IMG/VR virus record: IMGVR_UViG_3300010163_000008
Location: 64,001 to 116,952 of that record
DNA: 52,952 nucleotides
Direction: 5' to 3' (one strand)
Source: a virus
Lineage: Duplodnaviria; Heunggongvirae; Uroviricota; Caudoviricetes
How positions within the stretch are numbered: position 1 is the stretch's first letter; every line of letters begins with the position of its first letter. Positions 17,818 through 50,921 of this stretch are shown here, in pieces. The notes below the pieces were generated by a model. That model worked only from the letters and a program-made list of their open reading frames with translations. It did no database searches and was not told the DNA's origin. The position numbers were made by a program, and so were the translations under genes.

Positions 17818-17827
17818 ATAATCACCT

Positions 17828-18619
17828 TTACTTCTTCATGTTACGCTCGGCAAATTCCTTTTTATCGTTAGCTTTCTTCTGAATATCTACACCAATGACA
17901 TCACTTATAATAGCAATCTTGTTCCTATCAAGTGGGACACCTGCATAAAGCTTATCAGCTAACACATTAGCTAATGCTTCACGCTGTCCATTAGGCATTA
18001 CACCAACAATATCTCGAACATCTGAATCACTATACTCTGTAATATGGTCTACAATATCCTTATTGATAAGTTTGTTGTATTCCGTAGATAATCCGAGTGA
18101 ATATACTGCGGCTCTATCTAGTATGTAGAACAACCCCTGCTCTGCAAACTTACTTTCATTATTTACATAATCAACAAGGTCATGATAGAGTACAGACTTC
18201 ACTTGCCCGAATTTATCAAAAGTTAATAGCTTACCTGCACTCCTATTAGCTGAATTACAAAGATTAAGAGTACCATAATACATAGACATTACTTTAATCT
18301 GCTGATTAGCACTAGGTTCATCATAATGTTCAACAGCCTCAACTTTAGGTGCAGGCATATCTGCCGCTACAATCTTATCATGAGTTTCCCTCTCTGCCTT
18401 ATCATCAAGAAGTACTTGAATCTTAGACATCAATTCATTTACTGTATTCTTTAATTCTGCATTTTGTGCTTCAAGTGCTTTAATATTTTCATCTGCACTT
18501 GTTGTGCCGACGACTACAGCCTCAACAGTAGCTTTACTTTCTGTAGATTCAGTTGTTTTTGCGTCCACTTTTGCAGACACGGGCTTATCTACAGATTTAG
18601 TATTTTTAATCACTGACAT
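17828..18619 (-). CDS. Hypothetical structural-region protein (position equivalent to SPbeta YonA)
   Basis: 263 aa with a coiled coil and FDKFGQVK segment; RBS AAAGGGG. Confidence 0.5.
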   Translation of the reverse strand: MSVIKNTKSVDKPVSAKVDAKTTESTESKATVEAVVVGTTSADENIKALEAQNAELKNTVNELMSKIQVLLDDKAERETHDKIVAADMPAPKVEAVEHYDEPSANQQIKVMSMYYGTLNLCNSANRSAGKLLTFDKFGQVKSVLYHDLVDYVNNESKFAEQGLFYILDRAAVYSLGLSTEYNKLINKDIVDHITEYSDSDVRDIVGVMPNGQREALANVLADKLYAGVPLDRNKIAIISDVIGVDIQKKANDKKEFAERNMKK

Positions 18620-18691: not shown

Positions 18692-19783
18692 TTAGCCTAG
18701 TGTAATAACACCTGCGATAGCATTGGTAGCAATACCAATACCATAAGACTTCCAAATAGTGGTACTCTCGTTGAGATTTGCAGCGTCCATATGAGGAATG
18801 GTGTTAGTCATAGAATTACCCTCGTATACTACCTTAACAAGTGACTGAGAGGCAGGAGAAAGGACATAAATTCTATCATCACGAAGCCCAAGTGTATAGG
18901 GTTTATCCCATACTGCAATCTGGGGCAGAGCTAGGCAATCAAAGCCAAATGCATTCTTGACATAGCCAATAGTAGCATAGTCAGAATCAAGGAAGTAACG
19001 ATAGTTAGCGTTGTCAGGGAGCACGTTCTGTAGAGCCGCCTGAGTACCGACAAAGATAGCCTTAGAGCCACCATTGTAAGCAGTTACAACCTGACCAAGG
19101 CGTACTGCACTCTTCTGTGACCAACCAGCAACACGAAGTTCGCCATCAACAGGAGTGTCAGGAAGAGCTTCCATAGCGGTATCGAATGCAGTGTAGATTT
19201 CCTGTGTCATGTTAAGCTCAAGTGAAAGGATAGCTTTCATAACGAACTTGGCAAGAGAATCCATACCACAAAGTACACGATAGAAGTTTACAAACACAGT
19301 GATTTCACGGTTCTCTGGAACAATGCTCACCTGAGTGCTGTATTGCCTCTGGAACTCAACGGTGCGCTGGTCGCGTCCAGCCTTAGATACGTAGAAAAGG
19401 TCGCTAGGCTCTACTTCAAATAGAGCAGAATCGCCCCAACCAATATAACGGTTTTCAGAATATAGACCGATGGATTTATCAAGAATATCAGGGATAATCA
19501 TGTCGATAAGGCTGTTGACTACTGCCATAGCCGCCCAACGATAGTTAGGATTCTGGGAGTACATTTCCATAGAAACGTTTTCGGAGAAGTTAATACCAGA
19601 GAGCTTACGAATTTCATCCTGCATCATCTTATTGACCTTTGCTTCTTTATCAGCAAAAGTGTAAGACTTGTCGTAACTTAGTTCTTTCTTACCCATAGTC
19701 TCTGCCATATACTGATACATATAATCTTTAAAGGCAGATTGTACTTTGGGAAGATTATCAGCAAAGCATATCATTTTACCCAT
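18692..19783 (-). CDS. Major capsid protein (HK97 fold; SPbeta YonB position)
   Basis: 363 aa; follows the protease and decoration genes and precedes a strong hairpin; YIGWGDSALFEV and KSYGIGIAT segments; codon usage typical of a highly expressed gene. Confidence 0.75.
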   Translation of the reverse strand: MGKMICFADNLPKVQSAFKDYMYQYMAETMGKKELSYDKSYTFADKEAKVNKMMQDEIRKLSGINFSENVSMEMYSQNPNYRWAAMAVVNSLIDMIIPDILDKSIGLYSENRYIGWGDSALFEVEPSDLFYVSKAGRDQRTVEFQRQYSTQVSIVPENREITVFVNFYRVLCGMDSLAKFVMKAILSLELNMTQEIYTAFDTAMEALPDTPVDGELRVAGWSQKSAVRLGQVVTAYNGGSKAIFVGTQAALQNVLPDNANYRYFLDSDYATIGYVKNAFGFDCLALPQIAVWDKPYTLGLRDDRIYVLSPASQSLVKVVYEGNSMTNTIPHMDAANLNESTTIWKSYGIGIATNAIAGVITLG

Positions 19784-19800
19784 TATATTTCACCACCTTA

Positions 19801-20334
19801 TTAGTTATTAACGACTTCGAACTTGTAAGTCGTAGGATGAGACTTAACAAGTGCTGCGTCACCAATGTGTAGAATGCTTGTACCAATCTTATGTAGGCAC
19901 ATACCCGTACCTTCACTAGCAGAAGCCTTGAGTTTATAACCAGAAACATCAGGTACAAGATAATCAAGAGATTCAATGTTCTCGATGTTAGCACCAGTCA
20001 TTTCAATGATATCACCAGGGATTAACTTAGTAACATCAATCATACGACCTGCAACATTTACAAAAGCGCGTGGGTCTTTAGTAAGTCCACGATACTCTAC
20101 ACCCATTGCGTCCTTGATGGTAACAACTTCTGGTGAAGTAGCCATCCAAAGTCCTTTATCAGATTCAGAAGCCTGTTCTGCCTGCCATACCTTACTTTCA
20201 CCAGCATTGGTAGAATAAGCAGAGAGCTTAAAGACGCAACCATTTTCAACGTCCACATCACAAACTGCTGTGCGATTGTATGCGTCAACGTTATAAGCAG
20301 CTACACGCTTTTTAATAACAACATTATTTGCCAC
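19801..20334 (-). CDS. Head decoration/capsid stabilising protein
   Basis: Located between protease and capsid genes; DVENGCVFKL; GTG start at 20334 after AAAGGTGG. Confidence 0.55.
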   Translation of the reverse strand: MANNVVIKKRVAAYNVDAYNRTAVCDVDVENGCVFKLSAYSTNAGESKVWQAEQASESDKGLWMATSPEVVTIKDAMGVEYRGLTKDPRAFVNVAGRMIDVTKLIPGDIIEMTGANIENIESLDYLVPDVSGYKLKASASEGTGMCLHKIGTSILHIGDAALVKSHPTTYKFEVVNN

Positions 20335-24678: not shown

Positions 24679-26469
24679 TTAAGCCCACTGAATCCAATCA
24701 AGCAAAGAAGAATTATCTTGTCTATTCAATTCATCTTCTAACACTTTGGCATAATATAAACCATAAACTAAAGCCATAACACGGTCTTTTCTCCGATTAG
24801 ACTTCTCTTTTAATTTGATATATCCACCTTGAGCATATTGTTCAAGATTAATAGCTTCATTTATAAACACTTTAGTCTGAGCATAAGGATTAAGCAGCCT
24901 AGCCTTATCTTCCTGACTATCTATCTTATAATATTGATAATGTTCCTCTAAATATTCTATACCGATATCAGTATCTACAAGTAAAGACACATCACGTTTA
25001 TCAAATATATTCTTAGCATTAATAATCATATTATATAAAAGCTCTGGTGGAGTTTTAACAGAATAGATAACCGGAACAGCATTACTTGATACTTGCAATG
25101 CACGATTTACCATCTTAACATCTTCTAAGTTGTTCACCATCCATGCAGGATAAGTAACACCACGAGCATCGTCGTATGTCTCTGTAGTTGCCACATCATA
25201 TACACCAGCACCCACGCCTTGTGTATCTATGGCACACCAGTCACAATCAAACTCATAGAATAACTGTTTAATACGTCTATTCTGAACCATGGCATTAATA
25301 CCATGTAAGCTTTCACCGTAAGCTACAATCTTCTTATATTTGCCACCATCAGGAATAAGCCTAATAATCCATATAGCAGTATTATCGTTCTGATTAGATT
25401 CAATTAATGCAATATCTACTGCCATAAGACGTACTTCATTAGGCAACTTCTCTTGATAAAATTTCCATTTCTCTCTACAATTCTTATACTCATTATATTC
25501 AAAGTCTGACATTGCAAATAGAGCCTTTGCATTATCTTGACATTTGGCTAGTGTAGCATACTTAAAGAAACCATTAGCAGTACCACGCTCTGGAATGCAC
25601 ATATACTCTGCCATCAACATATCAACATTCTCTGTATTGCTCTTGAATTGTTGTTCAATGATATCAGCGTTAATATACTTATTCTTGATACCCCATTCAT
25701 AAGGGGATATATGTACACAATAACGCATGTCCCCCTCTGACATATACTTTAAGTATGATTCAAGCTCTTTATAAGACCATTCATCAGCACCACGAATAGA
25801 CGATAAGTAAAGCTGTTTATTAGCCTCTATAGGTAATTCTTCCTGTTCTTTAGCAGACAATTCTTGATACATAGGTTGTCTTAAAGCAGTCAAAAATGGT
25901 ACAAATACACGATTAATGACCTCTTTATCAGTACGCACAAATTCATCTACAATAAGAATGTGACAACGTATACCTAGTGCGTTCTCACTGTATGGCACTG
26001 CAAATATTTTAGAAGTGTTGTGGAACTCAATAGATGAATTTTGGTCACTTAAGTGAACATCTTTTATTTCCGCTTTTAAGTTAGGTGAATCGCGCATAAA
26101 CTCTTTAACTTTAGCAAGGAAACGCTTAGATTGCTCTTTGGTAGGAGCAACTATAACTATCTGCGTTCCCGGATATAAATTAGCACGTTCTAACGCAAAC
26201 AACAGACTTATTGTAGATTTAGCAGAACCACGGCTACCAACAAATATTATAGCATTAAAATAATTCATTTCATATATTAATATATTCTGAAAATCATGCA
26301 ATCTCAAACCATAATAGTCAGTAATCAATCTATGCGGATTAGCTCTAAAAAAATCAATCCATTCTAATAGATTCTCTTGATATGTAGCACTAGCGTCTTT
26401 CTGTTTTTTGCGTTTAATGACGAGTTTATTGTCCTGATTGTCCATCACCATTTTCACCGCCATTCGCAA
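24679..26469 (-). CDS. Terminase large subunit
   Basis: Walker A GSRGSAKS, Walker B ILIVDEF, nuclease acidic residues AVDIA, IDTQGVG and KDRVMA. Confidence 0.9.
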   Translation of the reverse strand: MRMAVKMVMDNQDNKLVIKRKKQKDASATYQENLLEWIDFFRANPHRLITDYYGLRLHDFQNILIYEMNYFNAIIFVGSRGSAKSTISLLFALERANLYPGTQIVIVAPTKEQSKRFLAKVKEFMRDSPNLKAEIKDVHLSDQNSSIEFHNTSKIFAVPYSENALGIRCHILIVDEFVRTDKEVINRVFVPFLTALRQPMYQELSAKEQEELPIEANKQLYLSSIRGADEWSYKELESYLKYMSEGDMRYCVHISPYEWGIKNKYINADIIEQQFKSNTENVDMLMAEYMCIPERGTANGFFKYATLAKCQDNAKALFAMSDFEYNEYKNCREKWKFYQEKLPNEVRLMAVDIALIESNQNDNTAIWIIRLIPDGGKYKKIVAYGESLHGINAMVQNRRIKQLFYEFDCDWCAIDTQGVGAGVYDVATTETYDDARGVTYPAWMVNNLEDVKMVNRALQVSSNAVPVIYSVKTPPELLYNMIINAKNIFDKRDVSLLVDTDIGIEYLEEHYQYYKIDSQEDKARLLNPYAQTKVFINEAINLEQYAQGGYIKLKEKSNRRKDRVMALVYGLYYAKVLEDELNRQDNSSLLDWIQWA

Positions 26470-29269: not shown

Positions 29270-29300
29270 AAAAAAGAGCAGGGGTTATTCCCCTACTCTT
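29270..29300 (-). terminator. Rho-independent terminator ending the Ro60 operon
   Basis: AAGAGTAGGGG-AATAA-CCCCTGCTCTT-TTTT. Confidence 0.8.
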
Positions 29301-29539: not shown

Positions 29540-29699
29540 TTTCTTCCTCTTCTACATCTGTAAATATTTTACTATTTGCATAATAAGAAGGAGGACTAGA
29601 AAAATTTTCTACCTTTTCTTCTGACAACATTGGGACATGAGATTTACGCTTTCTTGTTCTACCCTTCATACGCACAAACTGATAATCCGTAATCTTCAT
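29526..29699 (-). CDS. Hypothetical 57-aa protein
   Basis: ATG overlaps the TROVE stop (TGATG); MKITDYQFVRMKGRTRKRK... Confidence 0.45.
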   Translation of the reverse strand: MKITDYQFVRMKGRTRKRKSHVPMLSEEKVENFSSPPSYYANSKIFTDVEEEENAKN

Positions 29700-31357
29700 C
29701 AGTTGCCCTCTCCTTCCAATTCATCCCAAATCTTTATCTGCATATCTGCAAATAACACTTCTTTGCCAGTCCATCCTGATATACAGAAACATCTACGCGC
29801 CATCTGTGGTAGCACATTATTATTATATCCTGCTGTTTGAGTGCTAATCACGTTAACATTATTGTTTACTTTGCGCCTATAATCAAGAAGGATTTTGTAT
29901 ACATTGATATGCGGCTGATAGCTGACTCCATGACCATAACCTAATTTAGTGTATTCTTTCATATGAGCATCTGTGCCATATAATCCACCTAAACCAGCTT
30001 GTTGGTCAGAATAGATAAATATGTTGTCATATTTATCTTGATTCTTCATAGCTTCACGGAAGAATATCCAAATGCCGCCTTCTGTAGCACCACCAATACC
30101 TTCACCAACTTTATTGATTTCTGCCAACTTACGTAGTATTCTATCATGTTTAGATATAGGTACAATTTTTAGTTTATCACCAAAAACACCTACATAACCT
30201 TCATCTGAACATTTAGCAGATATAATAGCAGATAAATTGTCTATTTCAGCTACTGTTACTGTACCATATTCAGAAGTAAAGCCACCCCACGCACTTCCTG
30301 AGTTATCAGTAAGACACATAGTTTTACCTTTTAACCTAGGTAGATTCTGTATAGAGATATCTACACAATCCTCTAGTGCATCAAGGAGTATATCTCTATG
30401 ATGTATTCTACTATCATGTTTAATGACTTTATACGCCGACCAATATCTAAACGGGAATTGTTTGCCACGCTGTACACCAGATTTAAGTTGTTCTATAACT
30501 TTATCTAGCACCTGTACATCATCAATTTCAGTAAATATACCACGTAGATTTCTCAATAAAGCCATATGTGGTATATTGATATTCTCAAGAATATATTTCC
30601 AATCTTTTCCCTCTGATTTTAACTGATTCCATGTAAGTTGATTAGTTTCAACATCTACATCACCAGTGCGCATAAGCTCATCAATAATCGCTGAATGAGC
30701 ATGACATAACCGAACACCATTTATCATTCCGATTTCAGCGTTCTTGTATTTATTAACATTATACCTATCCAATGAGGAAAGTTTATTAGCCCACGTCCTT
30801 TTTAGAATACTAGGCATTTTAGCTTTACCCTCATTCTGATAAAGATAGTATGCCATTTGCACCATAGGTTCATCAGCCCTACGCATTACTTGTTTCTGAT
30901 AATCATTGAAACAAATCTTATCGGTAAACTCTTTGCGTTTAGGGTGAATAGCCGCCCTAACCATAATGATTTGCGGATTAAGCCGTATATTATATGTGTT
31001 CCTAAGTTCTACAGCCCAATCTAACGTACCAACATAATCATAAGTAAGCGCATCGTCAATAGCCGATATCATCAATTCAGTAGTAGTCTTGCCTTCATAA
31101 TCTTTGGATATAATTGAATCTGCACCAAAAATTGTTGATATCCGATACACATAAGATTTGCTTGGCTTCTTTTTATTTAATCCACCGTCTCTATAATATG
31201 ATGGTTCGCCAAAAATGCTCGAAGCTGTAATCATCTTTAATGTAGTAAGTGGGTCATATAAATAACTCTCGCCACCATCAAAATTAGTTACAATCTCGTC
31301 TAATCTAAGGGTCTGTTCGCTACGTTTTTCAGCGACTGCTTTAGATAATTTAGACAT
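29699..31357 (-). CDS. Ro60/TROVE-domain RNA-binding protein with C-terminal vWA domain
   Basis: N-terminal NFDGGESY..DP..L..G..SYY; helical TROVE region (MALLRNL, FPFRY); MIDAS DNSGS and SDQQ. Confidence 0.9.
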   Translation of the reverse strand: MSKLSKAVAEKRSEQTLRLDEIVTNFDGGESYLYDPLTTLKMITASSIFGEPSYYRDGGLNKKKPSKSYVYRISTIFGADSIISKDYEGKTTTELMISAIDDALTYDYVGTLDWAVELRNTYNIRLNPQIIMVRAAIHPKRKEFTDKICFNDYQKQVMRRADEPMVQMAYYLYQNEGKAKMPSILKRTWANKLSSLDRYNVNKYKNAEIGMINGVRLCHAHSAIIDELMRTGDVDVETNQLTWNQLKSEGKDWKYILENINIPHMALLRNLRGIFTEIDDVQVLDKVIEQLKSGVQRGKQFPFRYWSAYKVIKHDSRIHHRDILLDALEDCVDISIQNLPRLKGKTMCLTDNSGSAWGGFTSEYGTVTVAEIDNLSAIISAKCSDEGYVGVFGDKLKIVPISKHDRILRKLAEINKVGEGIGGATEGGIWIFFREAMKNQDKYDNIFIYSDQQAGLGGLYGTDAHMKEYTKLGYGHGVSYQPHINVYKILLDYRRKVNNNVNVISTQTAGYNNNVLPQMARRCFCISGWTGKEVLFADMQIKIWDELEGEGN

Positions 31358-31386: not shown

Positions 31387-31731
31387 TTAACTTATTGATG
31401 CACTAATTGCGTCTACAACATCCAGATAATCGTCAATTATATCTAATATAGTTTCTCGATTTTTATTATCTGAAAACTGTCCAACACAATCAGTCATATA
31501 CTTATTATATTGTTTTTCATCATCCTGTATTAAATCTAATACAGAGACATTGAATAAATTAGCTAGCTTTGACAATCGTTCAAAAGTAGGAAGTACTCTT
31601 CCTTGCATAAGGGCTTTTACTTGTTGTTCTGTATACCCAAGAGTTTGACTTAATTCTGCATCAGTAATATCCTGCTTATCTGCTAATTGTCGAATATGAT
31701 ATCCTAACATCCTTGCTCTTAGCATCGCCAT
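31387..31731 (-). CDS. XRE-family HTH transcriptional regulator
   Basis: IRQLA..QDIT.AELSQ.LG.....V..L.QG..LP.FE.L.KLA.LFNVSV. Confidence 0.8.
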   Translation of the reverse strand: MAMLRARMLGYHIRQLADKQDITDAELSQTLGYTEQQVKALMQGRVLPTFERLSKLANLFNVSVLDLIQDDEKQYNKYMTDCVGQFSDNKNRETILDIIDDYLDVVDAISASIS

Positions 31732-32437
31732 GACACTCCCTCATTATTTTTGGTAGTACTGGGTCTACCGCTGGTCTACTGATATCTGCCTTTACAGTTT
31801 TTAGGCTATCACTCTTTATAGGCTTTCTTTCAAAGCCTACATCAGGATTCTCCCAAGCCTGTATTACTCCACTGACATATGCCATTTTCATACTCCTTTG
31901 GTATTTTTGGTTTATGAACGGGTGTCGTATACACTTGTTCTCTCTGAGGTACACTATATGGCGGATTTTTAAATGTATCTGAATATACCTGAGAGTGAAT
32001 ATATACTTTACTCATAATCATTATCTCCATTGTGTTTAGAATCATCAAAATAATAATATTTACCCATCGCAAAACAATCTATTTCTTGTTGAAAGGTAGA
32101 TACTACTTTTCTAAATAACGCATTTGATAAGGCGCTTAAGGGTCTTTCAGCAGATGATAACCTCATACGCCTTTTGCGCTTGGCCTTGTGTTGTACTGTC
32201 TTAGTACTCACTCTTGTTCCTCTCTTATTCAACTAACTCAAATGATTTTGTTCCGGCAGGCGTTTGTATTTCTGTACCTAATTGAGTAATATCGCATATG
32301 TACGTAGCGTCTTTGCTAATTAGTTGTTTACCCGATACCTTTTTAATATGAGTATATTCAACATTCACTCTGCCAAAGTTGTCAACAGTTCTGCAACTAA
32401 CAACCTTACCAACAAAATCTTTTTTCTTCATTTTCAC
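31676..32437 (-). CDS. Cluster of about four small hypothetical ORFs (starts uncertain)
   Basis: Track ORFs 31676..31954, 31842..32072, 32008..32232 and 32225..32437 have internal RBS-linked starts; no recognisable domains. Confidence 0.35.
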
Positions 32438-32457
32438 TCACCTTTTATTTTCATTAA

Positions 32458-32499
32458 GGAAATGGTAGGAATTGCACCTACCCAATTACTAATATTTCC
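32458..32499 (-). ncRNA. tRNA-like minihelix (acceptor-like stem plus T-arm)
   Basis: GGAAAT-11nt-GGTAGG-TGCAATT-CCTACC-ATTTCC: 6+6 coaxial bp with a 7-nt T-loop-like loop. Confidence 0.55.
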
Positions 32500-32503
32500 A
32501 TAT

Positions 32504-32590
32504 AAAGCAATGAGAATAAGTTGTACAGTAGAACTTGTTTTCAGCCTACAAATCTAATAGAAGTAACTGTACAAACTGCTTCATTGCTTT
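32504..32590 (-). ncRNA. Y-RNA-like element B (87 nt)
   Basis: Outer stem AAAGCAATGA/TCATTGCTTT; motifs GAAGCAG, TACTTC and TTCTC; inner stem TTGTACAGT/ACTGTACAA. Confidence 0.7.
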
Positions 32591-32634
32591 AACAAAAAGG
32601 AGAAATAACAATGAAAACTTTGAAGAACTTGCGA

Positions 32635-32696
32635 CACGGATTGAAGATTCGCACTTCCATAGCCTTACCCTCTACCCAAGGGAATTTGCGTCCGTG
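32635..32696 (-). ncRNA. tRNA-like element lacking an anticodon arm
   Basis: CACGGA/TCCGTG closing stem, D-like CCCT-TGGGTAG-AGGG hairpin, T-like GAAG-TGCGAAT-CTTC hairpin. Confidence 0.5.
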
Positions 32697-32700
32697 ATAA

Positions 32701-32834
32701 ACTAATGAGAATATTAATTGACTGTGTATATATTCTAAAAAGAAGGTTGTCTAAACAGGAAAGGAGGTGTGTTCGGAAAGGAAGAACATAAGTTATATTA
32801 TAGAAGAAGTAACAGTCAACTCTGCTTCATTAGT
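32701..32834 (-). ncRNA. Y-RNA-like element A (134 nt)
   Basis: Outer stem ACTAATGA/TCATTAGT; motifs GAAGCAG, TACTTC and TTCTC; inner stem AGTTGACTGT/ACAGTCAATT; pyrimidine-rich loop. Confidence 0.7.
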
Positions 32835-32843
32835 ACTTATCAG

Positions 32844-33002
32844 TTATTTGCTTTCTTCTCGTTGCATTTCATACACCTTATCTAATAGTTTATAATATCT
32901 GTCTGATTTACGAGAAGGTGTACTGCCGTGTGATGATAAATATATAACCTCAAAAGCTGTAAGGCGTTTCTTACCGTTTTCAATATCTTTTTTATGTTCC
33001 AT
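32844..33002 (-). CDS. Hypothetical 52-aa protein
   Basis: RBS GAGGT; MEHKKDIENGKK...; absent from the track. Confidence 0.5.
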   Translation of the reverse strand: MEHKKDIENGKKRLTAFEVIYLSSHGSTPSRKSDRYYKLLDKVYEMQREESK

Positions 33003-33014
33003 AAATTACCTCTT

Positions 33015-33212
33015 TCAAAATCTACTCAATGCTTGTCCTATCATCTTTTTAGTAGTATTTCCATAGAAGTCTCTTAAACCTTCTTCATAAAAACAAGCAT
33101 TTTGGTTTTGAGCCGCTTTATATATACCATTATTCGGACACCCAAAGTCACTAACGTATATTATACTAATATGCGGTTCATTTTGCAACTGGATTGGAAA
33201 TAATGATTGCAT
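33015..33212 (-). CDS. Hypothetical 65-aa protein
   Basis: RBS AAGGAG. Confidence 0.5.
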   Translation of the reverse strand: MQSLFPIQLQNEPHISIIYVSDFGCPNNGIYKAAQNQNACFYEEGLRDFYGNTTKKMIGQALSRF

Positions 33213-33246
33213 ATTATGTCTCCTTACAGATTCTCAGGTTACACAT

Positions 33247-34425
33247 TTATTTGTGTAGATTTTCATACGTCATTAAAACATCAAAGTACTCATCAGCAAT
33301 ATCTGGACAAAATTGTTCAAGCGCTTCCATATCTCGCCATGGTCTACCTTTAGCCCTGCCATCTTGAATATATCGTTCAAAGTCTCTTTGATATTCATTA
33401 TAATAACTATTCATACCTCTGCATTTACAGAAGTCTCTAAAATTTAACGTTTTAAACATTCGTGGCTGATTACACCAACTTGCAATACTTGTATATGTAC
33501 CAGAATATTTACTGGTATACGCTTTTTCGTAGCGCATAATATAAGGTAAAGCATTATATGATGCAAGAATCTTAACCCTTTCAAATGTGCTTCTAATATC
33601 ATTTATCCAAAACGCATCATCATATTTATCTTCTCTATCAAAACCACATAAAACATAAAATTTAAAACGACACCTGACTTTTGTAATAGGATAGAGTGAT
33701 TGAATACGCGCTAATTTGCTTTCAATAATCTCTCTATCTGCAATATTATCAAACGCAAATGTATATCTCCCGTCATACTTCCAGTGCATCAATTCATGTA
33801 TTTTCTCGTCAGTAAGTAAACGTTCGTCAAGCCCTTGTCTAAATTGAAATCGTTTACCTGTTGCCTTAACTTCATCAACAATGTTTTTCCATTCTGGACA
33901 AGCAAAGAAGTTATCATCAAGAAAACATAACTTTGGTCTTTCTGGGTCGAGAAACTCACTTACTGGTGAATGCTGATTACATCTTGTATAATTTTGATTA
34001 ACACAAAATGGACATTGACGAAAACAACCACGAGTTAAAAAACCAATTGAATAATCAAGATATGCGGCGAAATCTTTTCTTTTACCACCATTATTTAATT
34101 TGTCTTGCACCCACTCATCATACAAATGATAATCAGGGAATATATGTTCTATTTCGTCTGGTAGCCTCGGCGCTTTATCATAATAAAAACCAGTCCCCCC
34201 TATCGAAACATTAGGTAAAGATAAAACGTCTGTTGGTACTTCTGTATCAGTAAACACTTTAGATATGTATACTTTATCAAAATCGTCTAAAGCATTATAA
34301 CTTGTACATAGCTTTACAATATCACCTGCATTCTTATGAAATGAACTGATTTTCATAGAAGCTAAATTAGGAAAACGATGTTTTTTACGACCTATAAGGT
34401 CAGCGTCTACAATGCCTATATTCAT
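33247..34425 (-). CDS. Radical SAM protein with B12-binding-like N-terminus
   Basis: TRGCFRQCPFC (CxxxCxxC), LDDNFF, QGLD.RL; N-terminal FPNL..MKIS..HK..GD.V. Confidence 0.85.
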   Translation of the reverse strand: MNIGIVDADLIGRKKHRFPNLASMKISSFHKNAGDIVKLCTSYNALDDFDKVYISKVFTDTEVPTDVLSLPNVSIGGTGFYYDKAPRLPDEIEHIFPDYHLYDEWVQDKLNNGGKRKDFAAYLDYSIGFLTRGCFRQCPFCVNQNYTRCNQHSPVSEFLDPERPKLCFLDDNFFACPEWKNIVDEVKATGKRFQFRQGLDERLLTDEKIHELMHWKYDGRYTFAFDNIADREIIESKLARIQSLYPITKVRCRFKFYVLCGFDREDKYDDAFWINDIRSTFERVKILASYNALPYIMRYEKAYTSKYSGTYTSIASWCNQPRMFKTLNFRDFCKCRGMNSYYNEYQRDFERYIQDGRAKGRPWRDMEALEQFCPDIADEYFDVLMTYENLHK

Positions 34426-34478
34426 TCAATCAATCCTTTGTGTACTTATTACCCGCTAGGGGTAAAGGAAGAAAGTAT

Positions 34479-34577
34479 TAATCCTCTTCCTTTGTAGACT
34501 TGCAAGTCTTCTTATAAGTCTTTGCTGGTGCAAGGTCAATCATACGAGCTGCAATTAGTCCTTTAAAAAAGTTCATA
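34479..34577 (-). CDS. Hypothetical 32-aa peptide MNFFKGLIAARMIDLAPAKTYKKTCKSTKEED
   Basis: RBS AAAGGTGA upstream; short. Confidence 0.4.
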
Positions 34578-34608
34578 ATAAATAATCACCTTTCTTAATT
34601 TAAGTAGT

Positions 34609-34727
34609 AACAACGAGAATAATGTAGAACAGTATAATATATGTATTTATCAATACACTTTCTTGTTCCTTTAACAGTAATAATCATCACAAATTATTGA
34701 AGTAACTGTTCTATCTGCTTCGTTATC
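34609..34727 (-). ncRNA. Y-RNA-like element C (~119 nt), first element of the operon
   Basis: Outer stem GATAACGA/TCGTTGTT; motifs GAAGCAG, TACTTC and TTCTC; inner stem TAGAACAGT/ACTGTTCTA; begins ~10 nt after a -10 box. Confidence 0.7.
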
Positions 34728-34737
34728 CTCTACCTAT

Positions 34738-34766
34738 ATTATACGATAAATTCTTTCATTTGTCAA
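34738..34766 (-). promoter_or_regulatory. Phage promoter motif (Ro60 operon)
   Basis: TTGACA-N17-TATAAT, followed by ATAGGTAGA. Confidence 0.85.
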
Positions 34767-34802
34767 GTAAATTTTTAGAAATTTTTCATTTTTTTATGTA
34801 GA

Positions 34803-35081
34803 TTACTGAATACACTTCTTAAGTGCAGAGGCAGCTTTAGCCTTGACAACATCGTGTTCGGGGCTTTCCCAAGGTTTGCCATCAAGAGGGCTTACACCAG
34901 AACTTGCGGGAATAGTCACTCGTGAATAAACAACGTCATTAATCTTTACACTGTCGCCAGTTGCCATTTCCTTAACATACGCCTTAGTTGCGTCCTCAAG
35001 AGACATAAGTACATCATGTGCCATCTTCTGAGACATGCCAGAACGAGCTGCAAAATACTTCATGAAATTTGTGTTAGTCAT
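34803..35081 (-). CDS. HU-like DNA-binding protein
   Basis: 92 aa; A..SGMSQK.A..V...L, GDSVKI, G.SPLDGKP, VKAKAASALK. Confidence 0.75.
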   Translation of the reverse strand: MTNTNFMKYFAARSGMSQKMAHDVLMSLEDATKAYVKEMATGDSVKINDVVYSRVTIPASSGVSPLDGKPWESPEHDVVKAKAASALKKCIQ

Positions 35082-35484: not shown

Positions 35485-35859
35485 TTATATCTGCTGTTTC
35501 ATTTGCGCCTCACCAGATAATTCGGCAACTTTGACACTAGTCTTATTAATATCGTCAGATAACTCAATCTGCATCTTATAAGTTGTGTCTATTTCATATT
35601 TGGATGCTATGTATGCCATTGCTGATTCTGGTGATACACCTACATTAGATAGAGCGCATATTGCCCCACAGACTTCTGCAACACTGTCCATGCCTTTCTT
35701 AAATAGCGCTTTATCAACAGACATCTTATCAAAACCACTCATATCAAGTTCAATGAATTGATAATCAGAATCGTAATCTTCATCTGCTTTTCTTGCTATC
35801 ATTGAAACTAGTTTTTCATCAAATGACATTGCATTTGCACCATCTTTTTCCTTAGACAA
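35485..35859 (-). CDS. Hypothetical protein
   Basis: 124-aa ORF overlapping the upstream stop. Confidence 0.5.
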   Translation of the reverse strand: MSKEKDGANAMSFDEKLVSMIARKADEDYDSDYQFIELDMSGFDKMSVDKALFKKGMDSVAEVCGAICALSNVGVSPESAMAYIASKYEIDTTYKMQIELSDDINKTSVKVAELSGEAQMKQQI

Positions 35860-36442
35860 TCGTGTCCACTCCTTTTAATTCAAGTACCTCATTAGGCGTA
35901 AAGAATCTATCTTTGCGTGTAGAATTGTACTCATCTATTTGTTCTGGTGTCATAGCCGTGTACTTTAGAATAATCTCCTTTATTACACCCCTAAAATACT
36001 CAGAACACTCTATAGCATCTACAACATCATTATGTTTACCATAAGCTCCATAAGATATATCATGATACATATAGTGAGAATACCTATATGCTCTGCGTTC
36101 TGAACCACATATTGCAAGAATAAATCCCATACTATATGCTTTGCCAATATTAGTTGTAATTATTTTATATCCTTCTGATTTCATGCTCTCTATTAATGAT
36201 ACAAGAGCCAATCCATCAGCCACAAAACCACCATTTGTATTTATTTGAATTTCTATCGGTTCTTTCTCTTTGTTAAGTTTATTATCTATATCTCTTATTT
36301 TATTTAGATAATAGATAACCTCCGTAACAGAATCTTCAGACACTTCATCGTATAACAGTATTTTACGTTGATTTACTGCTAATGAAAATTTCATCTGCGG
36401 AATAGAGAAATTGGGAGTTTTAGTTAAATAATCTAATTCCAC
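35852..36442 (-). CDS. clpP: ClpP-like serine protease
   Basis: IQINTNGG.V.DG, GKAYSMG (Ser), YMYHD (His), RKDRFFTPNEV. Confidence 0.85.
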   Translation of the reverse strand: MELDYLTKTPNFSIPQMKFSLAVNQRKILLYDEVSEDSVTEVIYYLNKIRDIDNKLNKEKEPIEIQINTNGGFVADGLALVSLIESMKSEGYKIITTNIGKAYSMGFILAICGSERRAYRYSHYMYHDISYGAYGKHNDVVDAIECSEYFRGVIKEIILKYTAMTPEQIDEYNSTRKDRFFTPNEVLELKGVDTIV

Positions 36443-36460
36443 TACTTTAATTCTCCTTTA

Positions 36461-37678
36461 TTACATGGAATCAGCCAAGCTGGTAATAGGATTACGATAG
36501 TTGTGTTTGAGTTTTACACATCCAAAACAACTATTATCCTTAAAGACGTTTATCATGCGTTCTGCGCCACTATGAATAACATTAGTGTCAGTTTGCTCGA
36601 TAATGTCTCCTTCATATATCTGTTTACAACCTGCATTACAACGTTGTATAATAGTCTTCAACGTGTATATATCAAGATTTTGAACTTCTGTTACAAACAC
36701 TGCTGAATCACTATTAAACTCCACACCACGAATGTTAGCAGTAGGTATTATCTCTAATTCATTAGCAATAAGCAATGCTCTGACAGCATCAATACCACCA
36801 AATTTAGTAGATAATATATTCCCCAATGAGCCGCTCATGAGAAGTTTATCTTCATGATTGCCTTTTTCATAACCCAATGTTTTAGCTCCACGTAATGTAT
36901 CATAAGAATACACTACATAGATTTTAGATATCTTACCAGCCTCTAGTAACTTCATAAGATATGACAAAGTTAAGAATGTCTTACCACTACCAGCCCTGCC
37001 ATACAACATTGTTATGTCATTGTTTTCAATAGAATCCAACGCACAAACTTGAAACTCATCTTTAGGTTTTAATGTACCGAATGCTTTAGTCTTTATATTT
37101 TTATTAAGAGTTTGAACATATTTAGTACCATCCCATTTGAGCTTATCTATACATTCACCGCTATCATTATATAATAGTAGATACTGATTAATTAAACAAT
37201 CATATACATTCATATCTACATGAGAATAGAAGTATGCTAGTTCTTCATCTGTAACTATAACCTTCTTATAACCTCTATACAAAGGTGATTTAGGTGTAGA
37301 TACAGTTTCAATACCTAATATGTTAGCTTTGATTGTTAGATTTAAGTCATGTGTACATAAAGCTGCTTGATTTATGTAAGCGCTTGTAACTATGATATCA
37401 TCGTTTGCATTATAGCTGTTAAATTGCTGTTCCCCACCACTATACAATTCACCAGCAATTACTCTATTCATATCAAATGATATAATTTTCATGCTAGTAG
37501 TAATTTGTCTAATGGCATTTCGAGCTTGCATTGCTCTTTCTGTGTCTCTGTTTGTTTTTAGATTATCAAGTTCTTCTATAACCACTATAGGTATCACAAC
37601 ATGATAATCTTTACTCAATGCTTCAATAAGATTATTACAATTCATTAAGGCACTGGTATCTAATACAACAGATTTCAT
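36461..37678 (-). CDS. phoH: PIN-PhoH fusion (RNase plus ATPase)
   Basis: PIN: VLDTS, VVIEELD, NDDII, T.DLNL. PhoH: GRAGSGKT, IRG, EVQN, IQR.....K.I.EGD..Q.D. Confidence 0.9.
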   Translation of the reverse strand: MKSVVLDTSALMNCNNLIEALSKDYHVVIPIVVIEELDNLKTNRDTERAMQARNAIRQITTSMKIISFDMNRVIAGELYSGGEQQFNSYNANDDIIVTSAYINQAALCTHDLNLTIKANILGIETVSTPKSPLYRGYKKVIVTDEELAYFYSHVDMNVYDCLINQYLLLYNDSGECIDKLKWDGTKYVQTLNKNIKTKAFGTLKPKDEFQVCALDSIENNDITMLYGRAGSGKTFLTLSYLMKLLEAGKISKIYVVYSYDTLRGAKTLGYEKGNHEDKLLMSGSLGNILSTKFGGIDAVRALLIANELEIIPTANIRGVEFNSDSAVFVTEVQNLDIYTLKTIIQRCNAGCKQIYEGDIIEQTDTNVIHSGAERMINVFKDNSCFGCVKLKHNYRNPITSLADSM

Positions 37679-46530: not shown

Positions 46531-46581
46531 ATGCAATATAAATCCTATCAACACGTAGAGCGTTGGGGAAATGAGAATTAG
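46531..46581 (+). pseudogene. Truncated RNA ligase 5' end (MQYKSYQHVERWGNEN*), probable omegaRNA guide source
   Basis: RBS AAGGAG; 14/16 aa identical to the N-terminus of the ligase at 48083. Confidence 0.8.
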
Positions 46582-46800
46582 CTGTCTTATAATATTTATA
46601 TTATAAACCATTTGGTTTTAGCTAATTAGACTAAGTGTATTTTATACTACGTTATGCAAGAATGATATAGTTATCAACAGATATACTACCTAGTCTGTTG
46701 CTCTAAGGATAGCAATTAAATAATTCTGAAAGACAGGAATAGTGTTGCTATTAAAAACCTTGCAATAACATTGTCTAAGGTAGAACTACTCTAACATACA
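46576..46800 (+). ncRNA. IscB omegaRNA scaffold (approximate limits)
   Basis: AATTAGCT/AGCTAATT first stem, then conserved-looking blocks AGACTAAG..CTACGTTAT..CCTAGTCTGTTGCTCTAAGG..AAACCTTG..TAACATTGTCTAAGG directly upstream of iscB. Confidence 0.7.
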
Positions 46801-46815
46801 AGGGGTCATATAGGC

Positions 46816-48051
46816 ATGGTGTATGTATTAAACATTAATAGCAGTCCTTTAATGCCATGTACAGAGGCTAAAGCTAAGAAGTTATTGCGTAATCATAAAG
46901 CACAAATAGTAAAATATGAACCTTTTACTATTCAACTCTTGTTTGAATGTGAAAATAAGATTCAAGATGTTGTGCTTGGTGTAGACGCAGGGAGTAAACA
47001 CATTGGATTGTCAGCAACAACAGCGACAAAGGAGTTATATGCGGCTGATATTGAGTTAAGAAATGATATTGTTGATTTATTATCTACGCGGAAAGAGCTT
47101 AGAGTGTCAAGACGGCGTAGGTTACGGTATCGTAAGGTTAGATTTAATAATCGCACTCACTCTAAGCATAAAGGATGGCTACCACCATCTGTTAGGCACA
47201 AAATTGACTGCCATTTAAAAGTCGTTGAAGAAGTGTATGGAATCTTACCTATATCACGTATCATTGTTGAAACTGCGTCTTTTGATATACAAAAGATAAA
47301 GAATCCAAATATACAAAGAAAAGAATATCAAGAAGGGGAACAGTCTGGATTCTGGAATGTAAGAGAATATGTATTGTTTAGAGACAATCACACTTGTCAA
47401 CACTGTCATGGGAAATCTAAAGATGATGTATTGAATGTTCATCATATTGAAAGTAGAAAGATAGGGGGTGACGCACCAAATAATCTAATTACATTATGTC
47501 GAACGTGTCATGAGGCATATCACCGTGGCAACATCGAATTGAATTTTAAGCGTGGTAAGTCCTATAAGGACGCTACCTTTATGGGAATTATGAGATGGGC
47601 ATTTTATGAAAAACTTAAAGCGTTATATTTGAATGTGTCCATGACTTATGGATATATTACTAAGAGTATTAGGATTCAATATAATTTGCCTAAAGAGCAT
47701 TATATAGATGCTCGATGTATATCAGGAAATCCACAAGCTCAACCTTTAGGTTATTACTACTATCAGAAAAAAGTACGTTGTCATAATAGACAGATATATA
47801 AAATGAAAATACTTAAAGGAAATAAACGAAAACGAAATCAAGCTGACTACACTGTTAAAGGATTTAGGTTATTCGACAAGGTTAAATATAAAGGTATTAA
47901 GTGTTTTATATTTGCTCGTAGAGTTAGCGGGTATTTTGATATTAGACAATTAGATGGTACTAAAATAAGTGCTAACGCTAACTATAAAAAACTACAACTA
48001 TTACAGATGCGTACAGGGTATCTAACAGAACAACGGACGCAAATTGGATAA
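46816..48051 (+). CDS. iscB: IscB RNA-guided nuclease (PLMP, RuvC, bridge helix, HNH)
   Basis: PLMP; GVDAGSK (RuvC-I); RRRRLRYR; LPPS; IVE (RuvC-II); CQHC..VHHI....GG..PNNLITLC..CH (HNH); HYIDA (RuvC-III). Confidence 0.95.
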   Translation: MVYVLNINSSPLMPCTEAKAKKLLRNHKAQIVKYEPFTIQLLFECENKIQDVVLGVDAGSKHIGLSATTATKELYAADIELRNDIVDLLSTRKELRVSRRRRLRYRKVRFNNRTHSKHKGWLPPSVRHKIDCHLKVVEEVYGILPISRIIVETASFDIQKIKNPNIQRKEYQEGEQSGFWNVREYVLFRDNHTCQHCHGKSKDDVLNVHHIESRKIGGDAPNNLITLCRTCHEAYHRGNIELNFKRGKSYKDATFMGIMRWAFYEKLKALYLNVSMTYGYITKSIRIQYNLPKEHYIDARCISGNPQAQPLGYYYYQKKVRCHNRQIYKMKILKGNKRKRNQADYTVKGFRLFDKVKYKGIKCFIFARRVSGYFDIRQLDGTKISANANYKKLQLLQMRTGYLTEQRTQIG

Positions 48052-48082
48052 TGACTATATCTATATAAAGGAGTTATATAAA

Positions 48083-48991
48083 GTGCAATATAAAAGCTAT
48101 CAACATATTGAGAGGCTTGGAAATGAGAACGTGGAAGGTATTGAATGTGGGAAGTGCATGATATTCCCTAAGATTGACGGCACTAATGGTACGGTGTTCT
48201 TAGGGGACGATGGGCAAGTTCATGCTGGTTCTCGTAGACGTGAATTAACGCTTGATAAAGACAACGCAAACTTTTATGACTATGTTCTACAGCAAGATAA
48301 TCTCAAGGCGTTCTTTAAGGAGCATCCTAATCTTAGGTTGTATGGTGAGTGGCTAGTTCCACACACACTAAGAACATATCGTAAGTCAGCATGGAATAAG
48401 TTTTACGTATTTGATGTTGCAGTAGACGATGAGCATTTTTCTGATGGGTTAATGTACTTATCTTATGAGCAATATCAACCTAAACTAGAGAAGTATGGGA
48501 TTGAATATATTCCCCCTCTTGCGGTTATAACTAATCCTACTTATGAGAACCTAATCAAGTGTATGCAGAAGAATGACTATCTCATCGAGGATGGTCAAGG
48601 TGTAGGTGAAGGTATCGTCATCAAGAATTACGCTTACTGCAATAAGTATGGCAGGACTACATGGGCTAAGATAGTAGCTTCTGAATTTAAGGAGAAGCAC
48701 GTTAAGACTATGGGTGCTCCTGTGATTAATGGCGATATGATTGAGGAACGTATCGTGCTTGACTTCTGTACTTCTGCTTTTGTAGAGAAGGAGTACGCTA
48801 AGATTGTTGAAGTGTGTGGCGGGTGGAAGTCTCAATACATACCTCGTCTACTCAATACAGTTTATCACGAGCTTGTCACAGAAGAGATGTGGAGCATTGT
48901 ACGCAAGTATAAGAATCCAACTATCAATTTTAAAACACTCTACTGCCTTATTGTAGATAAGATAAAGAGTGTAAAGCCTATGCTATTCTAA
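48083..48991 (+). CDS. ATP-dependent RNA ligase (Rnl2-like nucleotidyltransferase)
   Basis: Motifs I KIDGTN, III YGEW, IIIa FDV, IV EGIVIK and V WAKIV; GTG start at 48083 with RBS AAGGAG (the track start at 48044 overlaps iscB). Confidence 0.85.
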   Translation: MQYKSYQHIERLGNENVEGIECGKCMIFPKIDGTNGTVFLGDDGQVHAGSRRRELTLDKDNANFYDYVLQQDNLKAFFKEHPNLRLYGEWLVPHTLRTYRKSAWNKFYVFDVAVDDEHFSDGLMYLSYEQYQPKLEKYGIEYIPPLAVITNPTYENLIKCMQKNDYLIEDGQGVGEGIVIKNYAYCNKYGRTTWAKIVASEFKEKHVKTMGAPVINGDMIEERIVLDFCTSAFVEKEYAKIVEVCGGWKSQYIPRLLNTVYHELVTEEMWSIVRKYKNPTINFKTLYCLIVDKIKSVKPMLF

Positions 48992-48992
48992 T

Positions 48993-49018
48993 GTATAGGG
49001 GATTAATCTCCCCTATAC
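48993..49018 (+). terminator. Stem-loop after the ligase gene
   Basis: GTATAGGGGA/TCCCCTATAC, 10-bp stem; no U tract. Confidence 0.55.
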
Positions 49019-49051
49019 TACAAACTTAAATTTACAAAGGAGAAATATAAA

Positions 49052-49672: not shown

Positions 49673-49971
49673 CAGACCCTAAGAAAGTATCGTATAATGA
49701 AGCACTAGCTCATGTTATAGCCCGTTTTCATCGAGCTTATAAATCTCACATATTTACGTGTGAAGTGTGTGGTAAAACTATCGAGCCTATGATAAAAGTA
49801 TGGGGAGATGAAGTACTCTTTTATTCTGACCGTAGTGAGGCAAGGGGAGGTTTGGGTAATAAAGTAATTAAAAAGAATGCGTGTAATGATTGTTTAAGAG
49901 AAATCAATGCGGGTATTAACATTAATGATTGATGAATATATTAATTTGAATAATTCGGAGGTAGAATTATA

Positions 49972-50904: not shown

Positions 50905-50921
50905 TGTAGTTGGTGATGTAG

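What the first reader, a model, noticed from the sequence alone, without database searches (positions are those of the whole stretch)
32504..34727. Three Y-RNA-like elements with invariant motifs and covarying stems
Seen on the minus strand: each has the layout [outer stem]-GAAGCAG-[inner stem]-TACTTC-variable loop-[inner stem']-..TTCTC-[outer stem']. Stems differ completely yet pair: A AGTTGACTGT/ACAGTCAATT with ACTAATGA/TCATTAGT (32701-32834); B TTGTACAGT/ACTGTACAA with AAAGCAATGA/TCATTGCTTT (32504-32590); C TAGAACAGT/ACTGTTCTA with GATAACGA/TCGTTGTT (34609-34727). This covariation strongly suggests a structured RNA family. The motifs recall YrlA-type Y RNAs (from memory, not verified), but these lack an internal canonical T-arm and carry unrelated loops, so they may be Ro60 tethers for three different partners.
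Basis: partly seen in the sequence, partly recalled or inferred. Interest (0 to 1): 0.8.

Follow-up and report, generated by a model that had tools for sequence, protein, structure and literature searches.

The report
Phage Y-like RNAs beside Ro60 gene
Three small structured RNAs in a phage's Ro60 operon share the Ro60-docking stem of bacterial YrlA Y RNAs but carry unrelated loops where YrlA has a tRNA mimic, so they are new members of a known RNA class, not a new kind.

Summary
Three minus-strand elements (A 32701-32834, B 32504-32590, C 34609-34727) share GAAGCAG, a stem, UUACUUC, a variable loop, the stem's partner, UUCUC and an outer stem. The stem sequences all differ but all pair.

A covariance model built only from relatives found exactly these three in the 117-kb phage genome. 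Across 45 loci that encode the same TROVE/Ro60 clade, it found 80 copies. All 80 lie on the TROVE strand, and 69 lie within 1 kb of the gene. Bacillus phage G has five unannotated tandem copies upstream of gp540.

The window's own Ro60 gene (29699-31357, minus) lies 1.1-3.2 kb downstream, in a run of same-strand genes.

The architecture matches the Ro60-binding module of YrlA (Rfam RF02553). It has a terminal stem closed by GA/UC, a 5-nt/7-8-nt internal loop holding (C/U)GAA(U)GC, a second stem, then YUAY. Gordonia phage YrlA copies carry the same GAUGCG and GUUACUUC motifs.

Some relatives enclose tRNA-like modules. The window's three do not.

Y RNAs without a tRNA module are already known (YrlB, Yrn2, Thermus phage phiLo Yrl1 and Yrl2). 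Ro60 binding and expression were not tested here.

Novelty is modest: new members of a known kind.

The parts
34606..34733 (-). Element C (core 34609-34727). The outer stem GAUAACGA/UCGUUGUU has two G-U pairs and is extended by GUAG/CUAC. Then come GAAGCAG, the inner stem UAGAACAGU/ACUGUUCUA, UUACUUC, a 66-nt AU-rich loop and UUCUC. The element starts about where the upstream promoter should initiate.
   Evidence: fold -28.9 kcal/mol, z -3.0. CM R1 gives 31.3 bits, E 4.2e-5 and E 7.7e-6 in the own genome.
32698..32837 (-). Element A (core 32701-32834). The outer stem is ACUAAUGA/UCAUUAGU and the inner stem AGUUGACUG(U)/ACAGUCAAUU. The 81-nt loop is pyrimidine-rich and contains CACCUCCUUUC, which I recall as identical to the 3' end (anti-Shine-Dalgarno) of Firmicutes 16S rRNA.
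   Evidence: z -2.3. CM R1 gives 39 bits, E 2.9e-7. The 11-mer occurs exactly once in the window.
32503..32591 (-). Element B (core 32504-32590). It has a 10-bp perfect outer stem, a 9-bp perfect inner stem and a 31-nt loop.
   Evidence: z -2.7. CM R1 gives 36.8 bits, E 1.2e-6.
34738..34766 (-). Consensus sigma-70-type promoter (TTGACA, 17 nt, TATAAT; 12 of 12). It would start transcription about 7 nt downstream, near 34731, at the foot of element C's stem.
   Evidence: and the sequence. This is a consensus match only, not shown to function.
29699..31357 (-). Ro60-like gene of 552 aa with a TROVE domain followed by a vWA-type MIDAS motif (DNSGS). It is the presumed protein partner of the three RNAs.
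   Evidence: Pfam TROVE 26 bits against a cut-off of 23. phmmer to the Thermus phage phiLo Ro60 structures 9KOP and 9L5Y gives E about 1e-8, with DNSGS aligned to DVSGS. It is 49.6% identical to Bacillus phage G gp540, annotated 'putative TROVE domain ribonucleoprotein'.
29274..29300 (-). Strong intrinsic-terminator-like hairpin (11 bp, 6 G-C, U-tract) about 400 nt downstream of the Ro60 gene. It is the likely end of the transcription unit.
31387..31731 (-). HTH (XRE-type) gene between the RNA elements and the Ro60 gene. It is not conserved beside TROVE in relatives.
   Evidence: Pfam HTH_3, E 5.7e-9. tblastn finds no hit in relatives' loci.

Best explanation
The three elements are phage-encoded Y RNA-like non-coding RNAs. 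Each pairs its 5' and 3' ends into a bipartite stem. The internal loop of that stem, (C/U)GA|AGCAG opposite A-W-UAUUC|UC, together with the invariant UUACUUC, forms a YrlA-type docking module for the phage's own Ro60 (TROVE) protein, which is encoded downstream in a run of same-strand genes.

Shown here: the elements are real, strand-specific and covarying. They belong to a family found almost only beside genes of this TROVE clade. Their stem module has the architecture and core motifs of the YrlA Ro60-binding module.

Inferred: they are probably transcribed from the promoter at 34766-34738 (C at the 5' end of the transcript; A and B further along the same or a read-through transcript) and trimmed out of the polycistronic RNA. 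They then bind Ro60 through the 5' strand of the internal loop. The variable loop acts as the effector module, gating Ro60 or linking it to another factor such as a host 3'-5' exonuclease like PNPase.

Where YrlA has a tRNA mimic, A, B and C have three unrelated loops. A's loop is CU-rich.
For: Anatomy and more-than-chance occurrence.

Independent model: CM R1 was built from 14 relatives, with no window or phage G sequence. It scores A, B and C at 39, 36.8 and 31.3 bits (E 3e-7 to 4e-5) and finds only these three in the whole 116,952-bp genome.

Linkage to TROVE: 80 matches at E up to about 0.002 fall in 45 TROVE loci. All 80 are on the TROVE strand, 69 are within 1 kb and 77 within 4 kb. All three contigs found from the RNA motif alone also encode a TROVE open reading frame of about 560 aa, with the array directly after it. 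Four of nine TROVE loci on MAG contigs have a copy directly upstream. In the control, 938 kb of viral contigs carrying the 5' motif by chance gave significant hits only in the two TROVE-bearing contigs. No other gene of the window's operon is conserved beside TROVE in relatives, so the RNA and TROVE are the conserved pair.

Covariation. Family consensus.

Likeness to YrlA: Rfam consensus and structure, Gordonia phage YrlA copies with GAUGCG and GUUACUUC, and relatives whose loops hold YrlA-type permuted tRNA modules (RF02553 hits at E 2.7e-5 to 6e-4).

Literature: the GNCGAA(N)G and YUAY motifs, Y RNAs within 4 kb of Ro60 on the same strand, and second Y RNAs without a tRNA module (PMC4201824). 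Thermus phage phiLo Ro60 binds two Yrl RNAs without a tRNA module, encoded upstream of its gene. Mutating CGAA weakens that binding 3-4-fold, and a complex forms with PNPase (PMC12135203).
Against: Rfam's YrlA and Y_RNA models give no hit on the three elements even at E<=10.

In A and B the base before GAA is U, not the C of the published CGAA motif. Family-wide that position is U in 32, C in 28 and A in 7 of 67 sequences.

The window's elements lie 1.1-3.2 kb from the Ro60 gene with protein genes in between. In most relatives they lie within 1 kb of it.

No terminator follows any element, so discrete small RNAs would require processing.

The link to the experimentally tested phiLo Yrl RNAs is by analogy only. 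R1 does not match the region upstream of the phiLo gene.
Confidence: 0.78

Rival explanations
1. The elements are cis-acting parts of the operon mRNA rather than free small RNAs. They would be Ro60-binding sites or stabilising 5'/intercistronic stems through which Ro60 autoregulates or protects its own polycistronic transcript. C would act as a 5' leader, and A and B as intercistronic sites.
For: C starts at the predicted transcription start and is followed by a ribosome-binding site and an ATG, with no terminator. A and B sit between open reading frames of the same strand. No terminator follows any element.
Against: Relatives carry tandem arrays of up to about six copies, often downstream of the TROVE stop codon and among tRNA genes. 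That layout suits processed stable RNAs better than mRNA operators. Some copies enclose tRNA-like modules, as trans-acting YrlA does. The two roles are not mutually exclusive.
Confidence: 0.12
2. The elements are RNase III-type (or other nuclease) processing hairpins of polycistronic phage transcripts, like the T7 early-mRNA sites. They would have no specific relation to Ro60.
For: Each element is a long bipartite stem with an asymmetric internal loop. From my own knowledge, that is the general shape of phage RNase III sites. The elements are intergenic within a run of same-strand genes.
Against: Only three copies exist in a 117-kb genome with many operons, and all are in the Ro60 unit. Linkage to TROVE is strict in position and strand across 45 loci. 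Control contigs without TROVE have none. The invariant single-stranded motifs match those of YrlA.
Confidence: 0.05
3. The elements act at the DNA level, as inverted repeats that are remnants of a mobile element or recombination sites.
For: They contain inverted repeats and occur in several copies.
Against: G-U pairs, which would be A-C on the other strand, occur in A, C and across the family. Orientation is 80 of 80 on the TROVE strand. Stem sequences covary freely while the unpaired motifs stay fixed. There are no target-site duplications or transposase genes.
Confidence: 0.02

Closest known systems
YrlA (Rfam RF02553), the bacterial and actinophage Y RNA with a tRNA-like effector domain (Chen et al. 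2014, PMC4201824)
   Same: The terminal stem formed by the 5' and 3' ends closes with GA/UC. An asymmetric internal loop holds (C)GAA(U)GC on the 5' strand. A second stem follows, then YUAY (here UUAC). The elements are encoded on the Ro60 strand within 4 kb. Gordonia phage YrlA copies share GAUGCG and GUUACUUC. Some relatives in this family enclose the YrlA-type permuted T/acceptor/D module.
   Different: The window's three copies have no T arm, D arm or acceptor-like stem, and they do not match RF02553 at any threshold tried. Their loops are unrelated to each other. The 3' internal-loop strand (A-W-UAUUC) is conserved in this clade, whereas Chen et al. report that only the 5' strand is recognisable in Salmonella and M. 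smegmatis.
Yrl1 and Yrl2 of Thermus phage phiLo (NAR 2025, PMC12135203; PDB 9L5Y)
   Same: They are phage-encoded Y-like RNAs without a tRNA module, lying upstream of the phage's own Ro60 gene, with a stem-bulge-stem design and a (C)GAA motif in the bulge. Their protein is the closest solved homologue of the window's TROVE protein (E about 1e-8).
   Different: There is no detectable sequence or covariance-model similarity to the phiLo upstream RNAs. phiLo has two RNAs and this phage has three. Binding and a PNPase complex were shown for phiLo; nothing has been shown here.
YrlB (Salmonella, M. smegmatis) and Yrn2 (D. radiodurans), the second Y RNAs
   Same: They are Ro60-bound Y RNAs that lack the tRNA-like module and are co-encoded with a tRNA-like Y RNA and Ro60. 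They have pyrimidine-rich loops, as element A does. Yrn2 is cut from a polycistronic precursor.
   Different: Those are long hairpins with small loops. Here the loops are 31-81 nt, and this genome has no accompanying YrlA with a tRNA module.
Y-like RNA of Bacillus phage G (as PMC12135203 credits Chen et al. 2014)
   Same: It belongs to the same TROVE clade (gp540 is 49.6% identical) and the same RNA family. R1 and my descriptor find seven copies near gp540, five of them in tandem in the unannotated 1,060-bp gap just upstream.
   Different: One phage G copy (L118:17779-17936) has a T-loop and is probably the one reported. The five tandem copies without a tRNA module use AUCUC or AACUC in place of UUCUC. 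I could not check which copies were published, because the supplement is not held.

Membership tests
Y RNA in the broad sense (Ro60-associated ncRNA) | Bound by Ro60 in vivo or in vitro | not testable with these tools
   No binding or co-purification data exist.
Y RNA in the broad sense (Ro60-associated ncRNA) | An RNA of 80-130 nt whose 5' and 3' ends pair into a long stem with a bulge or internal loop that carries the Ro60 site, plus a second variable module | tested here: met
   The elements are about 87, 119 and 134 nt. The bipartite stem with an internal loop is recovered by RNAfold and supported by covariation.
Y RNA in the broad sense (Ro60-associated ncRNA) | Encoded next to a Ro60/TROVE gene, on the same strand | tested here: met
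   The window's elements are 1.1-3.2 kb upstream on the same strand. Family-wide, 80 of 80 are on the same strand and 77 of 80 within 4 kb.
YrlA (RF02553) | The GNCGAA(N0-1)G motif near the 5' end | tested here: inconclusive
   C has AACGAAG, which has the CGAAG core but not the G two bases upstream. A and B have AAUGAAG, with U in place of C. Family-wide the position before GAA is U in 32, C in 28 and A in 7 of 67 sequences.
YrlA (RF02553) | The conserved YUAY after the second stem | tested here: met
   UUAC is present in all three. In the family, U30, A31 and C32 are conserved in 66-67 of 67 sequences.
YrlA (RF02553) | A tRNA-like effector domain with T arm, acceptor-like stem and D arm | tested here: not met
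   ARAGORN finds no tRNA genes. Rfam gives no tRNA or YrlA hit at E<=10. Loops A, B and C have no T-loop motif.
YrlA (RF02553) | Score at or above the Rfam gathering threshold of 69 bits | tested here: not met
   No hit. Even relatives that contain a tRNA module reach only 26-33 bits.
Phage RNase III processing hairpins | Scattered between cistrons of many operons, with no linkage to one gene | tested here: not met
   Only three copies exist in 117 kb, all in the Ro60 unit. Linkage to TROVE is strict.

The most novel reading that the evidence does not exclude
This TROVE clade of phages may use one fixed Ro60-docking stem as a cassette holder for interchangeable cargo loops. The cargoes seen are a permuted tRNA mimic (L034, L119), a normal-order tRNA-like sequence (L123), A-rich mini-loops, and, in this phage, a CU-rich loop with an exposed 11-nt copy of the 16S rRNA anti-Shine-Dalgarno tail. 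On this reading, one phage Ro60 would be directed to several host RNA targets, for example ribosome-binding sites of mRNAs through element A. That would make the array a programmable set of guides, not just gates or PNPase tethers.
Probability: 0.15. Interest if true: 0.65.

Novelty: new member of a known kind. Interest (0 to 1): 0.38.

Why it matters
The finding extends the known set of Y RNAs that lack a tRNA module to a large, mostly uncultivated clade of big phages. Bacillus phage G belongs to that clade, and its five tandem copies are not annotated in the GenBank record.

It gives a sharper consensus for the Ro60-docking module than the short CGAA motif used so far: GA|WGCRG, a 9-bp stem, WUACWUC, the loop, the 9-bp partner, AWUAUUC|UC.

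It also shows that the effector module is freely exchanged on a constant scaffold. That provides a covariance model and a natural set of variants for testing what Ro60 recognises and what phage Ro60 complexes are directed to.

In itself the finding is an expected companion of a phage Ro60 gene.

Tried and rejected
- **Rfam.** At gathering thresholds only HEARO and a group I intron were found elsewhere in the window. At E<=10 on 32300-35000 there were only spurious hits, such as let-7 on both strands of B, which reflects a generic hairpin.
- **Close relatives.** Megablast of the region against 50,697 phage records found no match, so the loops cannot be tested for conservation in close relatives.
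- **The 110-nt spacer between A and B.** By eye it looked like a D-arm plus T-arm mini-tRNA. I rejected this: the fold z-score is 0 to +1.4, and no tRNA or YrlA hit appeared even when the spacer was scanned alone.
- **GAAG pairing with CUUC.** I considered a pseudoknot or alternative helix between GAAG and the CUUC of UUACUUC. It is not supported, because GAUGC variants keep UUACUUC unchanged.
- **Loop A's GGAGG complement as a plus-strand ribosome-binding site.** The only start codon is a GTG overlapping the motif, so I rejected this.
- **Raw scan of viral contigs.** The 5' motif scan returned mostly chance hits, and only 3 of 113 contigs were real.
- **First MAFFT alignment (A1).** It put the 3' stems out of register and was not used.
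- **Jobs not run.** No protein structure or complex job was run. The complex tool cannot take RNA, and the TROVE assignment was already clear from Pfam and PDB sequence matches.
Full report
**Context.** The window is bases 64001-116952 of a complete 116,952-bp virus record with inverted terminal repeats. Genes from 3 to 41659 run on the minus strand.

Reading the minus strand shows the three elements exactly as described.
- GAAGCAG-N10-TACTTC occurs three times, and no match appeared in any of 100 shuffles. Allowing two mismatches adds nothing.
- Each element folds with an outer and an inner helix as its minimum-energy structure, with z-scores of -2.3 to -3.0.
- The helices of A, B and C differ in sequence but all pair.
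- C's outer stem and A's inner stem contain G-U pairs. These would be A-C mismatches on the other strand, so the RNA is read from the minus strand.

**2. Relatives.**
- A scan of viral contigs for the 5' motif returned mostly chance hits. Three contigs (L022, L034, L035) had complete elements.
- L034 holds a tandem array of about six copies.
- All three contigs encode a TROVE open reading frame of about 560 aa, and the arrays begin just after it.
- The window also has a TROVE gene at 29699-31357 on the minus strand. It is 49.6% identical to Bacillus phage G gp540. It matches the Thermus phage phiLo Ro60 structures 9KOP and 9L5Y at E about 1e-8, with its MIDAS-type motif DNSGS aligned to DVSGS.
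- In phage G, the unannotated 1,060-bp gap upstream of gp540 contains five tandem copies.
- Fetching 43 viral loci that encode this TROVE clade and scanning them with a motif-plus-stem descriptor gave hits in 26 of the 45 sources scanned (the 43 loci plus the window and phage G). All were on the TROVE strand.

**3. An independent model.**
- I built covariance model R1 from 14 short-loop relatives, leaving out the window and phage G.
- R1 finds A, B and C at 39, 36.8 and 31.3 bits. These are the only three matches in the phage's whole genome.
- At E up to about 0.002 there are 80 matches in 45 loci. All 80 are on the TROVE strand, 69 lie within 1 kb of the open reading frame, and 77 within 4 kb.
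- As a control, 938 kb of viral contigs that carry the 5' motif by chance gave significant hits only in the two TROVE-bearing contigs.
- Four of nine TROVE loci on MAG contigs have a copy immediately upstream of the gene.
- No other protein of the window's operon recurs beside TROVE in relatives.
- Covariation is strong. In the 14 relatives, 92.9% of cells are paired against 35-52% for slid partners. In 90 distinct sequences, all 17 pairs change on both sides. That second alignment was fitted to the model.

**4. What the element is.**

The family consensus is:
- an outer stem closed by G-A paired with U-C;
- a 5' internal-loop strand A/U-G-C-G/A-G;
- a 9-bp stem closed by G-C;
- then U/A-U-A-C-U/A-U-C, with U30, C32, U34 and C35 invariant in all 67 sequences and A31 in 66;
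- a variable loop, which in the model-aligned sequences ranges from about 22 to 113 nt counting that heptamer;
- the 3' strand of the 9-bp stem;
- a 3' internal-loop strand A-W-U-A-U-U-C.

The match to YrlA rests on three points.
- The Rfam YrlA consensus printed has the same plan: a 6-bp stem ending in GA/UC, a 5-nt loop AUGCu opposite 8 nt, a 7-bp stem, then CUA.
- Chen et al. 2014 describe the YrlA signature as GNCGAA(N0-1)G near the 5' end, thought to be the Ro60 site, and a conserved YUAY. Here these are (C/U)GAAGC and UUAC.
- Gordonia phage Neville has a very different Ro protein. Its canonical YrlA copies upstream of the Ro gene still carry CAGAUGCG and GGUUACUUC.

Some relatives' loops hold the YrlA-type permuted tRNA module. 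RF02553 scores them at 26-33 bits, below the gathering threshold. Others hold a normal-order tRNA-like sequence. About three quarters, including the window's three, hold no T-loop.

The stem module is therefore the YrlA Ro60-binding module, and the window's elements are versions of it without the tRNA module.

**5. How it probably works.**

Established knowledge:
- Y RNAs are modular.
- Their terminal stem binds Ro60, mainly through the 5' strand.
- Their other module gates Ro60 or tethers it to partners such as PNPase (bioRxiv 10.1101/312249; PMC4201824).
- In Thermus phage phiLo, two Yrl RNAs without a tRNA module, encoded upstream of the phage Ro60 gene, bind the protein. Mutating CGAA weakens binding 3-4-fold, and a complex forms with host PNPase (PMC12135203).

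Inference for this phage:
- A consensus promoter at 34766-34738 would start transcription at the foot of element C.
- A and B lie further along this run of same-strand genes. One transcription unit is inferred, not shown.
- The Ro60 gene follows, and a strong terminator-like hairpin lies at 29300-29274.
- The RNAs would be trimmed from the polycistronic transcript, as Yrn2, tRNA-Asp and Yrn1 are in Deinococcus, and would then load onto the phage Ro60.

The three loops are unrelated. Loop A is CU-rich, and its predicted single-stranded part includes CACCUCCUUUC, the only exact copy in the window. From my own knowledge, this is the 3' tail of Firmicutes 16S rRNA. I noticed this after the fact and have not tested it.

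The same window also encodes an RNA ligase, a kinase-like P-loop protein (AAA_33; an RNA-repair kinase role is my guess) and a PIN-PhoH protein. This fits an RNA repair or quality-control setting.

**6. Comparison and novelty.**
- The elements fail the defining tRNA-like feature of YrlA, so I do not file them as YrlA.
- They fit the broader class of Y RNAs without a tRNA module: YrlB, Yrn2 and phiLo Yrl1/Yrl2.
- PMC12135203 credits Chen et al. 2014 with Y-like RNA in phage G. I could not check which copy, because the supplement is not held.
- The result is therefore new members of a known kind.
- Two family-level additions are useful: a longer docking consensus, and clear evidence that effector loops are swapped on a constant scaffold.

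**7. Rivals.**
- A cis-regulatory role on the operon mRNA remains possible, especially for C, and does not exclude the main reading.
- Generic RNase III sites are disfavoured by the linkage to TROVE.
- DNA-level repeats are disfavoured by the strand bias, the G-U pairs and the YrlA motifs.

Noticed in passing
window 32611-32697 (+): A 28-aa open reading frame on the opposite strand, between elements A and B, has a good ribosome-binding site (AAAGGAGAAATAACA-ATG). The matching minus-strand spacer has no significant fold. There are no close relatives to test conservation, so it may be chance.
   Followed up: partly
window 32759-32769 (-): Loop A contains CACCUCCUUUC in a predicted unpaired stretch. 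It is the only exact copy in the window. I recall it as identical to the anti-Shine-Dalgarno tail of Firmicutes 16S rRNA. Two further CU-rich tracts flank it.
   Followed up: partly
window 33247-34425 (-): A 392-aa protein between elements C and A has a CxxxCxxC motif (CFRQCPFC), suggesting a radical SAM enzyme, but no Pfam hit at E<=0.01. It is not found beside TROVE in relatives.
   Followed up: partly
window 46577-52578 (+): This stretch holds a HEARO RNA (84.7 bits), an IscB-like protein (RRXRR plus HNH, 46816-48051), an RNA ligase (PF09414, 48044-48991) and a kinase-like AAA_33 protein (49972-50904). It is an RNA-repair-type gene set about 15 kb from the Ro60 gene.
   Followed up: partly
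window 35852-37678 (-): A ClpP-like protease (35852-36442) and a PIN plus PhoH fusion protein (36461-37678) lie just upstream of the Ro60 unit. A second perfect promoter (35183-35155) precedes an HU-like gene (34803-35081).
   Followed up: no
window 14686-15018 (-): Group I intron (RF00028, 72.3 bits).
   Followed up: no
L118 (Bacillus phage G, JN638751) 19256-19935; also 17779-17936 and 25361-25427: Five tandem Y-like elements without a tRNA module fill the unannotated gap upstream of gp540 (TROVE). A sixth copy, with a T-loop, lies 2 kb upstream, and a seventh lies among the tRNA genes. None is annotated in the record.
   Followed up: partly
L123:7672-8060: Three tandem elements enclose tRNA-like sequences in normal (not permuted) order directly after UUACUUC. 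ARAGORN calls tRNA-Lys(ttt) at 7701-7773 and tRNA-Thr(ggt) at 7842-7910, and Rfam scores the first at 58.9 bits as tRNA. The Y stem therefore acts as a paired leader and trailer around a tRNA-like core.
   Followed up: partly
L119:3881-4524: A ROOL RNA (RF03087, 284 bits) lies in the tRNA cluster about 1.5 kb upstream of the TROVE gene of a related 156-kb phage contig.
   Followed up: no
L162 (Gordonia phage Neville) 1275-1690: Three to four tandem YrlA/Yrl-like elements (GAUGCG, GGUUACUUC, T-arms) lie upstream of the Ro gene. They overlap the small annotated CDSs gp088-gp090, which may therefore be miscalled.
   Followed up: no
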